Origin: Minisyncoccia bacterium
GTDB lineage: Bacteria > Patescibacteriota > Minisyncoccia > UBA6257 > JACOXY01
Length of the DNA stretch: 25,694 bases
NCBI GenBank assembly: GCA_041476445.1
Contig: JBGOTK010000001.1
Location: forward strand, 1 to 25,694
Direction: 5' to 3'
Part shown: one piece after another, positions 8,152-8,421 of the stretch
How positions within the stretch are numbered: the first letter of the stretch is position 1
Layout: each line of letters opens with the position of its first letter
Position numbers and translations under genes: made by a program
The notes under the pieces: model-generated
The model's database searches: none
Seen by the model: only the letters and a program-made list of their open reading frames with translations
Told to the model about the DNA's origin: nothing

Positions 8152-8421
8152 GGAACTCATATCAATAATATTATCTGCCCGCGTTGTCTCTCAAAATCAT
8201 ATAGGACAAGGCTTGCCGACGAGATCGTACCCAGAGGGTACCTCGAGGAGGTGTAACGAAGTCATAGATGATTTTGGCGACAACCCAATGGGCTATGGCA
8301 AAAATCATAAATTCCTTTGTCACTCTTCGTCAATGTACGAGACGTACAATTTCCTCGTCGCTTCGCGGTCTTTACGATTTTTGCACATAGCGCGAGCGAG
8401 AATAGTATTGAAATGAGTTCC
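8152..8421. repeat. Inverted-repeat-bounded branched element, copy 1 (270 bp)
   Basis: Terminal inverted repeats 8152-8172 and 8401-8421 (19/21 match). Internal hairpin A spans 8183-8284 and hairpin B spans 8292-8391. Homologous to 24355-24568. Confidence 0.75.

What the first reader, a model, noticed from the sequence alone, without database searches (positions are those of the whole stretch)
8152..8421. Dispersed branched element (copy 1) that ends 3 nt before the galU start codon
Seen: the architecture is TIR - CCGCG - hairpin A (GTTGTC..CAAAATCAT/ATGATTTTG..GACAAC) - hairpin B (GCTATG-GCAAAAATC/GATTTTTGC-A-CATAGC) - TIR. The same architecture recurs at 24355-24568, with identical blocks CTCGTCGCTTCGCGG (8354-8368 and 24500-24514), CACATAGCGC and CCTTTGTC. 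Hairpin B shows a compensatory change: AAAAATC/GATTTTT here versus AAACATC/GATGTTT in copy 2. Its central GTAC-loop-GTAC stem is kept while the loop differs. In both copies the left TIR begins exactly 3 nt from the ATG of an unrelated minus-strand housekeeping gene (galU, folD). Inference: a family of structured non-autonomous mobile elements, or a cis-acting RNA acting at translation starts.
Basis: partly seen in the sequence, partly recalled or inferred. Interest (0 to 1): 0.8.

Follow-up and report, generated by a model that had tools for sequence, protein, structure and literature searches.

The report
Branched palindromic selfish repeat of CPR bacteria
The two look-alike stretches are copies of a 270-base, hairpin-rich DNA repeat scattered through this tiny bacterium and about a third of its relatives; it behaves like selfish, flippable mobile DNA wedged against gene ends, not like an RNA switch for galU or folD.

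Summary
Copy 1 (8152-8421) and copy 2 (24355-24568, with the inside of arm A deleted) belong to a family with at least 13 copies in this 0.75 Mb genome. The family occurs in 20 of 61 genomes searched in the order and 9 of about 147 in other orders of the class.

The fold is a terminal stem of about 30 bp, two arms of about 100 nt in mirror orientation, and a central mini-hairpin. Covariation supports it strongly: 91% Watson-Crick pairs against 56% in shuffles.

Several results point to DNA rather than a one-strand RNA:
- G-U pairs equal A-C pairs.
- There is no consistent orientation relative to genes.
- The interior is flipped between otherwise identical flanks in three cases.
- One copy sits in frame inside a Mur ligase gene of a relative. 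An earlier finding of this scan, e1-1345240, described that same DNA.

There is no target-site duplication, no Rfam match and no co-occurring known transposase. Ends flush with start or stop codons are a family-wide trait, most simply because the element fills very short spacers. An allele without the element at the galU site exists in the source sample.

Verdict: an undescribed, unusually large and branched member of the REP/REPIN, Correia and RPE kind of palindromic repeats. How it moves is unknown.

The parts
8152..8421 (.). Copy 1, full-length element. The covariance model places the GAAC...GTTC core at 8153-8420.
   Evidence: 273.6 bits on +, 177.2 on -
8152..8183 (.). 5' arm of terminal stem P1, ending in the conserved CGCG box. 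Pairs with 8390-8421.
   Evidence: 28 pairs, many with 3-4 Watson-Crick pair types across copies
8183..8284 (.). Arm A (hairpin A). Its interior carries the conserved blocks AAGGC, GACGA, GAGGAGG and TAACG, plus the inner hairpin 8227-8241.
   Evidence: the same module occurs alone in other loci
8284..8292 (.). Central mini-hairpin CCC-NNN-GGG on the dyad axis. Its loop occurs in both orientations across copies.
8292..8391 (.). Arm B (hairpin B). Its interior is roughly the reverse complement of the arm A interior. Inner hairpin at 8335-8347.
8390..8421 (.). 3' arm of terminal stem P1.
8165..8194 (-). Promoter-like site TTGAGA-N18-TATTAT facing outwards towards galU. Consensus match only.
   Evidence: Family-wide, such outward sites pass the threshold in 6 of 46 right ends and 3 of 46 left ends, against about 0.7 expected.
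24355..24568 (.). Copy 2. P1, the arm A stem and arm B are kept; the arm A interior (about 60 nt) is deleted.
   Evidence: (142.4 bits)
7315..8148 (-). galU-type nucleotidyltransferase gene. Its ATG at 8148 lies 4 nt from the element core.
23533..24351 (-). folD gene. Its ATG at 24351 lies 5 nt from the core of copy 2.

Best explanation
The element is a non-coding, palindromic, structure-conserved selfish DNA repeat of candidate-phyla-radiation (Parcubacteria/Paceibacteria-type) bacteria.

**Anatomy.** One unit has a terminal inverted repeat of about 30 bp enclosing two hairpin modules of about 100 nt in mirror orientation and a small central hairpin. The whole unit is an imperfect branched palindrome.

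**Shown:**
- It is dispersed and patchy across genomes.
- It was recently amplified in some genomes.
- It is polymorphic in the source population.
- It has been kept at one orthologous site across three genera.
- It can invert in place between its terminal repeats.
- It decays by internal deletion, as in copy 2.
- It lies flush against start and stop codons and, once, in frame inside a Mur ligase gene.

**Inferred:**
- It spreads through a folded single-stranded DNA or cruciform intermediate, or by recombination or template switching at palindromes. Cut-and-paste DDE transposition is unlikely because there is no target-site duplication and no conserved terminal sequence.
- Strict Watson-Crick complementarity on both strands is kept by selection on the DNA fold, by arm-to-arm gene conversion during inversion, or by both.
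- The elements sit against gene ends because, in a compact genome, a 270-bp insertion survives only in very short spacers or in permissive in-frame sites.
- Effects on neighbouring genes, such as a possible outward promoter, would be by-products.
For: **Copy number and spread**
- At least 13 copies in G000.
- 20 of 61 genomes in the order and 9 of about 147 in other orders of the class.
- Named hosts include Ca. Staskawiczbacteria.

**Structure**
- 87 pairs, 90.9% Watson-Crick against 55.8% in shuffles and 25-31% with slid partners.

**No RNA strand**
- G-U 73 against A-C 66 in the model-fitted alignment; 209 against 228 in the 68-copy set.

**No conserved ORF**.

**No target-site duplication**
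- 68 of 78 copies have only a 0-1 nt direct repeat at their ends.
- Termini differ between subfamilies.

**Inversion**
- L176 against L178: flanks 80-88% identical; interior 66.5% in the same orientation but 99.1% when flipped.
- L173 against L175: interior 61% in the same orientation, 100% flipped.
- The copy at the M23-peptidase junction is flipped in G000 relative to G001-G003.

**Long residence**
- The M23 peptidase gene reads 18 nt into the element and ends RNPFVK* in both genomes whose junction I translated by eye, G000 and G001.
- In G002 and G003 the ORF also runs 18 nt into the element, and all four share a solo terminal-repeat fragment on the far side.
- The three copies compared pairwise (G001, G002, G003) differ by 5-11 compensatory double changes per pair.

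**Recent amplification**
- Four near-identical copies in G055.

**Polymorphism**
- A contig in source run X1 joins position 8150 to 8424 with 7 other letters between.

**In-frame copy**
- A 271-nt element lies inside a 515-aa Mur ligase ORF in G036. The orthologues (405 and 403 aa, 57% and 49% identical) lack it.

**Housekeeping contexts**
- mreB stop, 3 nt, element, 6 nt, mreC ATG. Others lie next to genes for a solute-binding protein, ribonucleotide reductase, VanY and an EF-G-like GTPase.
Against: - No mobilising enzyme was identified. DDE_3, Y1_Tnp, Resolvase, IS110, rve, DDE_Tnp_1 and TnpB are absent or do not track the element.
- Copies within G000 are old: 60-80% identical pairwise.
- Compensatory evolution at a resident orthologous locus could also mean a host function.
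- Conserved unpaired sequence blocks inside the arms, kept across orders, suggest a specific ligand that has not been identified.
- Outward promoter-like sites occur at a fixed register more often than in shuffles.
- No transcript data could be obtained (one search found DNA runs only).
Confidence: 0.7

Rival explanations
1. A structured RNA element with a host function in cis. Examples: an RNase III processing or stabilising module between cistrons, or a leader that controls translation initiation of the gene whose AUG follows the terminal stem.
For: - Very strong covariation.
- Compensatory changes between orthologous copies.
- It sits inside an operon, between mreB and mreC.
- 19 of 37 neighbouring starts lie within 8 nt of an end.
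- A 30-bp terminal helix would be an RNase III substrate; this rests on general knowledge.
Against: - G-U equals A-C.
- Mixed orientation relative to genes.
- The interior is flipped at the same site.
- Copies lie after stop codons, between convergent genes and in frame inside a Mur ligase gene.
- No Rfam match.
- No terminator-like tail.
Confidence: 0.12
2. An invertible regulatory cassette, like an inverton. The segment between the terminal repeats flips and so switches an outward promoter or translation signal for the adjacent gene on or off.
For: - The interior is inverted between near-identical flanks in two G055 pairs and at the M23 junction.
- Promoter-like site facing galU in copy 1, 10 of 12 matches.
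- Outward sites at a fixed register in 6 of 46 right ends against 0.7 expected.
Against: - Inversion is seen only between paralogous or orthologous copies, not within one population (one search lists no strand-switch joint at the element; contigs only).
- The terminal stem carrying the -10-like hexamer does not itself change on inversion.
- Most copies fail the promoter threshold, and copy 2 has no such site.
- No invertase co-occurs: Resolvase is absent from G000, G055 and G060.
Confidence: 0.08
3. A DNA architectural or protein-binding site recruited by the host, in the way BIME/REP elements bind gyrase and IHF. The conserved arm interiors would be mirrored binding sites.
For: - Conserved unpaired blocks (AAGGC, GACGA, GAGGAG, TAACG) and their complements are kept in mirror arrangement across orders.
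- Strand symmetry.
- Long retention at one locus.
Against: - Patchy distribution: absent from two thirds of the genomes searched in the order.
- An in-frame copy inside a gene.
- Internal deletion is tolerated (copy 2).
- No candidate protein was identified.
Confidence: 0.1

Closest known systems
REP / BIME / REPIN elements of Proteobacteria, mobilised by RAYT Y1-HUH transposases
   Same: - Dispersed intergenic palindromes.
- Structure conserved more than sequence.
- Mirror-paired hairpin units.
- No target-site duplication.
- Sit at gene ends.
   Different: - The unit here is 270 nt and branched, against 20-40 nt for REP and about 70-110 nt for REPIN.
- No RAYT link. PF01797 is absent from G000 and found in 7 of 20 carrier genomes against 14 of 41 non-carriers.
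Correia repeat-enclosed elements (CREE/NEMIS) of Neisseria, and ERIC/IRU of enterobacteria
   Same: - Non-coding and bounded by terminal inverted repeats.
- Many copies next to gene starts.
- Can be co-transcribed.
- The ends can resemble promoters.
   Different: - About twice the size, with two long internal arms.
- No TA duplication.
- Terminal sequence not conserved between subfamilies.
- A different phylum.
Rickettsia palindromic elements (RPE)
   Same: A palindromic selfish repeat found between genes and, at least once, in frame inside an essential gene (Mur ligase).
   Different: - No generally open reading frame: 1-3 of 31 copies are open in any one frame.
- Lengths are not multiples of three.
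- No sequence relation.
Earlier finding of this scan, e1-1345240: a 271-bp element in frame in a Mur ligase gene of another CPR genome
   Same: - The same family. That DNA is my locus L043:1501-1771 (113 of 113 words).
- It scores 150 bits with the model built from this genome's copies.
   Different: - The copies here are intergenic and richer in A+T.
- This report adds distribution, the lack of target-site duplication, strand symmetry, inversion, the orthologous copy and the population allele.
Invertons (invertible promoters flanked by inverted repeats)
   Same: A segment of about 200 bp between inverted repeats is found in both orientations.
   Different: - No dedicated recombinase found.
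- The interior is itself palindromic.
- Switching within a population has not been shown.

Membership tests
Classical MITE (derived from a DDE transposon) | Terminal inverted repeats | tested here: met
   A terminal stem of about 30 bp in every full copy.
Classical MITE (derived from a DDE transposon) | Target-site duplication of fixed length | tested here: not met
   68 of 78 copies have a direct repeat of 0-1 nt. The TA flanks seen in some copies are palindromic extensions of the stem.
Classical MITE (derived from a DDE transposon) | An autonomous partner with the same ends, or a co-occurring transposase | tested here: not met
   - No longer unit with these ends in G000 and no multi-copy IS.
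- DDE_3 found in 2 of 61 genomes, neither a carrier.
- IS110, DDE_Tnp_1 and TnpB absent from five high-copy genomes; rve present only in G000.
REP/REPIN-RAYT system | Association with a RAYT (Y1 HUH) gene | tested here: not met
   PF01797 is absent from G000 and does not track carrier status.
REP/REPIN-RAYT system | Palindromic units in inverted pairs, without target-site duplication | tested here: met
   Two arms in mirror orientation; no duplication. Unit size is far larger than REP.
Rickettsia palindromic elements | Insertion in frame into protein genes, with an open frame through the element | tested here: inconclusive
   One clear case, a Mur ligase gene in G036. The family has no conserved open frame.
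Structured non-coding RNA (Rfam family or new RNA) | Match to a curated RNA family | tested here: not met
   No match at gathering thresholds. Only noise at E up to 10.
Structured non-coding RNA (Rfam family or new RNA) | Covariation with wobble pairs favoured on one strand, and a fixed orientation relative to transcription | tested here: not met
   - Covariation is strong.
- But G-U is about equal to A-C.
- Orientation is mixed.
- The interior flips.
Inverton | Both orientations present at one locus within a population, plus a site-specific invertase | tested here: inconclusive
   Both orientations are seen between paralogous and orthologous copies. Only assembled contigs were available for the population. 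There is no consistent serine recombinase.
Retron or DGR RNA linked to the neighbouring reverse transcriptase | Consistent adjacency to the RT; for a DGR, differences between repeats confined to adenines | tested here: not met
   The other RT copies (C5, C90) have no element nearby. Differences between copies are of all kinds and compensatory.

The most novel reading that the evidence does not exclude
The family is a new class of structure-defined mobile DNA in ultra-small bacteria. It would spread without any known transposase through a folded single-strand or cruciform intermediate. Its interior would flip between the terminal repeats. Because both ends carry the same outward-facing sequence, flush with start codons, it could supply or switch expression signals for housekeeping genes.
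Probability: 0.15. Interest if true: 0.8.

Novelty: new variant of a known kind. Interest (0 to 1): 0.55.

Why it matters
CPR bacteria have some of the smallest and most compact genomes known. Even so, this one spends about 0.5% of its DNA on a 270-nt repeat that sits inside operons (mreB-mreC), touches start and stop codons and, in a relative, is translated inside a cell-wall enzyme.

- **Unusual properties.** The family keeps an elaborate fold through hundreds of compensatory changes. It shows no RNA-strand signature, no target duplication and no known transposase, and it flips in place. That points to a way of spreading and being maintained that the standard categories do not cover.
- **Annotation.** The covariance model can mask these repeats. 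Otherwise they may be mistaken for riboswitch-like RNAs, and they break assemblies.
- **Strain typing.** The element gives natural markers for strain-level variation in groundwater and sediment CPR populations.

Tried and rejected
- **Link to the reverse transcriptase.** The neighbouring ORF at 24653-25660 is a DGR-type RT (LGNLTSQ, YADD). I rejected a retron, DGR-template or group II intron link. The other RT copies have no element nearby, Rfam finds no intron domains, and copy differences are not confined to adenines.
- **TA target duplication.** Rejected.
- **In-element ATG as start codon.** The terminal ATG is in frame with the downstream ORF in 7 of 19 flush cases, which is what chance gives.
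- **Arm-specific G-U bias.** In 31 copies, arm A showed 23 G-U against 10 A-C and arm B 13 against 25. This did not hold in 38 further copies.
- **Pairing between the arm interiors.** GAGGAGG with CCTCCTC shows no covariation (read).
- **Whole-element single long hairpin.** The element is only 65% self-complementary, so the two-arm fold is much better.
- **Empty-site search.**
  - The exact junction was not found in JGI metagenome contigs.
  - The exact-protein look-up for GalU returned only the filled allele.
  - GalU relatives in metagenomes are at most 38% identical.
  - MreC and GalU in family-level relatives were undetected or 35-41% identical.
  - Nucleotide-level pre-insertion sites could therefore not be recovered.
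- **RNA data.** No RNA runs hold this DNA.
- **Vectors.** No match in phage or plasmid collections or in viral contigs.
- **Literature.** Searches for CPR or Patescibacteria MITEs or palindromic repeats found nothing relevant.

Full report
**1. Observation**

Reading 8152-8421 and 24355-24568 and aligning them confirms the described layout.
- A terminal inverted repeat of about 30 bp, ending in CGCG boxes.
- A long hairpin A and a long hairpin B.
- An inner GTAC-loop-GTAC stem in each hairpin.

Copy 2 keeps the terminal stem, the stem of arm A and all of arm B. It has lost about 60 nt from inside arm A.

The neighbouring genes are a GalU-type nucleotidyltransferase, FolD and a reverse transcriptase. 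The likely galU ATG is at 8148 and the folD ATG at 24351. They lie 4 and 5 nt from the GAAC core of the element.

**2. Copy number and spread**

The window is a whole contig of a 748,779-bp assembly in 94 contigs.
- blastn and nhmmer find eight full-length copies and at least five partial or single-arm copies.
- The boundaries are sharp: GAAC...GTTC.
- A covariance model built from the eight full copies recovers them all.
- It finds the family in 20 of 61 genomes of the same order, one to more than sixteen copies each, patchily across families.
- It also finds it in 9 of about 147 genomes from other orders of the class.
- A pattern scan of species-representative genomes names Ca. Staskawiczbacteria and several unnamed CPR assemblies as hosts. 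It also finds a lone arm A module in a rumen assembly labelled Clostridiales.
- G+C content of copies runs from 35% to 62%.
- Rfam has no match.
- Phage, plasmid and viral collections have none.
- I found no paper on such repeats in this group.

**3. Structure**

RNAalifold on 31 model-aligned copies gives 87 pairs in the terminal stem P1, arm A, arm B and the two inner hairpins.
- 90.9% of cells are Watson-Crick. Shuffling partners within columns gives 55.8% (maximum 57.7% in 500 trials). Sliding partners by 1-3 columns gives 25-31%.
- Many pairs show three or four Watson-Crick types.
- The usual sign of an RNA strand is missing. G-U totals 73 and A-C totals 66; in a 68-copy dereplicated set they are 209 and 228.
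- An apparent arm-specific bias in the first set did not replicate.
- No reading frame is conserved, and lengths are not multiples of three.
- Arm B is roughly the reverse complement of arm A, including the unpaired conserved blocks. The unit is therefore a branched imperfect palindrome that scores well on both strands.

**4. Behaviour as DNA**

(a) *No target-site duplication.* Of 78 copies, 68 have a direct repeat of 0-1 nt. The TA flanks in some copies simply extend the palindrome. The terminal sequence differs between subfamilies.

(b) *Inversion.*
- In G055, L176 and L178 share flanks (80-88% identical over 80 nt) and terminal stems. Their interiors are 66.5% identical as found and 99.1% identical when one is flipped.
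- L173 and L175 give 61% and 100%.
- At the 3' end of an M23 peptidase gene, the ORF reads 18 nt into the element and ends RNPFVK* in G000 and G001, the two junctions I translated by eye. In G002 and G003 the ORF also runs 18 nt into the element.
- All four genomes have a solo terminal-repeat fragment on the far side. The interior is flipped in G000 relative to the other three.

(c) *Age.*
- The junction shared across three genera argues for an old, orthologous insertion.
- The three same-orientation orthologues (G001, G002, G003) differ pairwise by 5-11 compensatory double changes and 8-10 broken pairs. My rough estimate of the chance expectation is below one double change.
- Copies within G000 are only 60-80% identical.

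(d) *Recent activity elsewhere.*
- G055 has four near-identical copies.
- In G060, two copies with near-identical interiors differ at five positions in the outer 8 bp of both terminal arms, perfectly compensated. I cannot explain this by point mutation alone. Arm-to-arm conversion during inversion is one possibility.

(e) *Population polymorphism.* In the run that probably yielded this assembly, one contig (depth 3.6, against about 7 for the main form) joins 8150 to 8424 with seven other letters between. That is a galU upstream region without the element.

(f) *Inside a gene.*
- In G036 a 271-nt copy lies within a 515-residue Mur ligase ORF. Pfam matches lie on both sides of it.
- The orthologues in G005 and G055 (405 and 403 aa; 57% and 49% identical) lack the inserted block of about 95 residues.
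- This is the same DNA as earlier finding e1-1345240 of this scan.

(g) *Nesting.* Small G+C-rich palindromes are nested inside arms of some copies. In G055 the element itself lies within a larger palindromic unit.

**5. Context**

In G000 the copies lie among housekeeping genes:
- mreB stop, 3 nt, element, 6 nt, mreC start
- 3 nt after the stops of genes for a solute-binding protein, a ribonucleotide reductase and VanY
- 1-6 nt before the starts of galU, folD, mreC and an EF-G-like gene

Across about 54 loci, 19 of 37 neighbouring ORFs that read away from the element have a candidate start within 8 nt of an end. Of 35 that read towards it, 14 stop within 3 nt of an end or inside it.

The simplest reading is that a 270-bp insertion survives only in the very short spacers of a compact genome.

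Orientation relative to genes is mixed. It is mostly antisense to the model strand in G000 and mostly sense in relatives.

Copy 1 has a promoter-like site facing galU; copy 2 has none. Across the family, outward sites at one fixed register pass the threshold in 6 of 46 right ends, against 0.7 expected. This is suggestive but weak.

**6. What moves it**

Nothing was identified.
- No longer unit with these ends and no multi-copy insertion sequence exist in G000.
- IS630-type DDE_3 occurs in 2 of 61 genomes, neither a carrier.
- Y1 HUH transposases (7 of 20 carriers, 14 of 41 non-carriers) and serine recombinases (10 of 20, 13 of 41) do not track the element.
- IS110, DDE_Tnp_1 and TnpB are absent from five high-copy genomes; rve occurs once.
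- The neighbouring RT is DGR-type. Its other copies have no element beside them.

**7. Verdict**

The finding is real. It is best read as a large, branched member of the palindromic selfish-repeat kind (REP/REPIN, Correia/ERIC, RPE), so far undescribed in the literature I could search but already met once by this scan.

It fails the defining tests for a classical MITE, for a RAYT-driven REPIN and for a one-strand structured RNA.

Its distinctive points are its size and nested architecture, strict two-strand complementarity kept over long times, in-place inversion, and flush packing against gene boundaries.

The mechanism of spread and any host effect remain inferred.

Noticed in passing
window 24653-25660 (-); also G000 C5:16788-17570 and C90:136-403: A DGR-type reverse transcriptase (LGNLTSQ and YADD motifs) present in at least two or three diverged copies that end contigs. 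C90 holds a 94-nt repeat pair (792-885 against 1279-1372, 81% identical) that could be a template/variable repeat pair.
   Followed up: partly
window 24645-24684: A palindrome of about 38 nt straddling the RT stop codon recurs at the stop of the second RT (C5:16776-16810). It also occurs at C90:2074-2108, twice on C29, and at C41:2304-2343. This is a separate small repeat family.
   Followed up: no
window about 23499-23533; also C2:22333, C21:2395 and 7457, C23:1029, C44:1912, C55:182: Another dispersed motif (...ATTCGCATATCATTTGTAGATTAG...) sits just after the folD stop. On C21, two copies form a perfect 29-bp inverted repeat bracketing 5 kb that holds a 1203-aa ORF.
   Followed up: no
G000 C3:20060-20350, C15:5514-5680, C78:91-249; G055 L182: A small G+C-rich palindrome (CCTGCCTGCCGG(T/C)AGGCAGG) is nested inside arms of some element copies. 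It also lies in flanks in G055.
   Followed up: no
G000 C89:1762-2106: A protein of the 23S rRNA-intervening-sequence family (PF05635, the fold of DGR Avd proteins) lies 57 nt from an element copy. With the RT beside copy 2, that puts two of about 13 copies next to DGR-type genes. This may be chance.
   Followed up: no
G000 contig pairs C19/C44, C21/C63, C67/C78, C65/C92 and others: Several contig pairs are 80-94% identical over 0.8-3.3 kb. The assembly may therefore mix two related strains.
   Followed up: no
G036 locus L043:1383-1440: The same Mur ligase gene carries a second, small extra block (about 13-17 residues, G+C-rich DNA) upstream of the 271-nt element. The orthologues lack it.
   Followed up: no
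G060 loci L168 and L169: Two copies with near-identical interiors differ at five positions in the outermost 8 bp of both terminal arms, perfectly compensated. Unexplained.
   Followed up: partly
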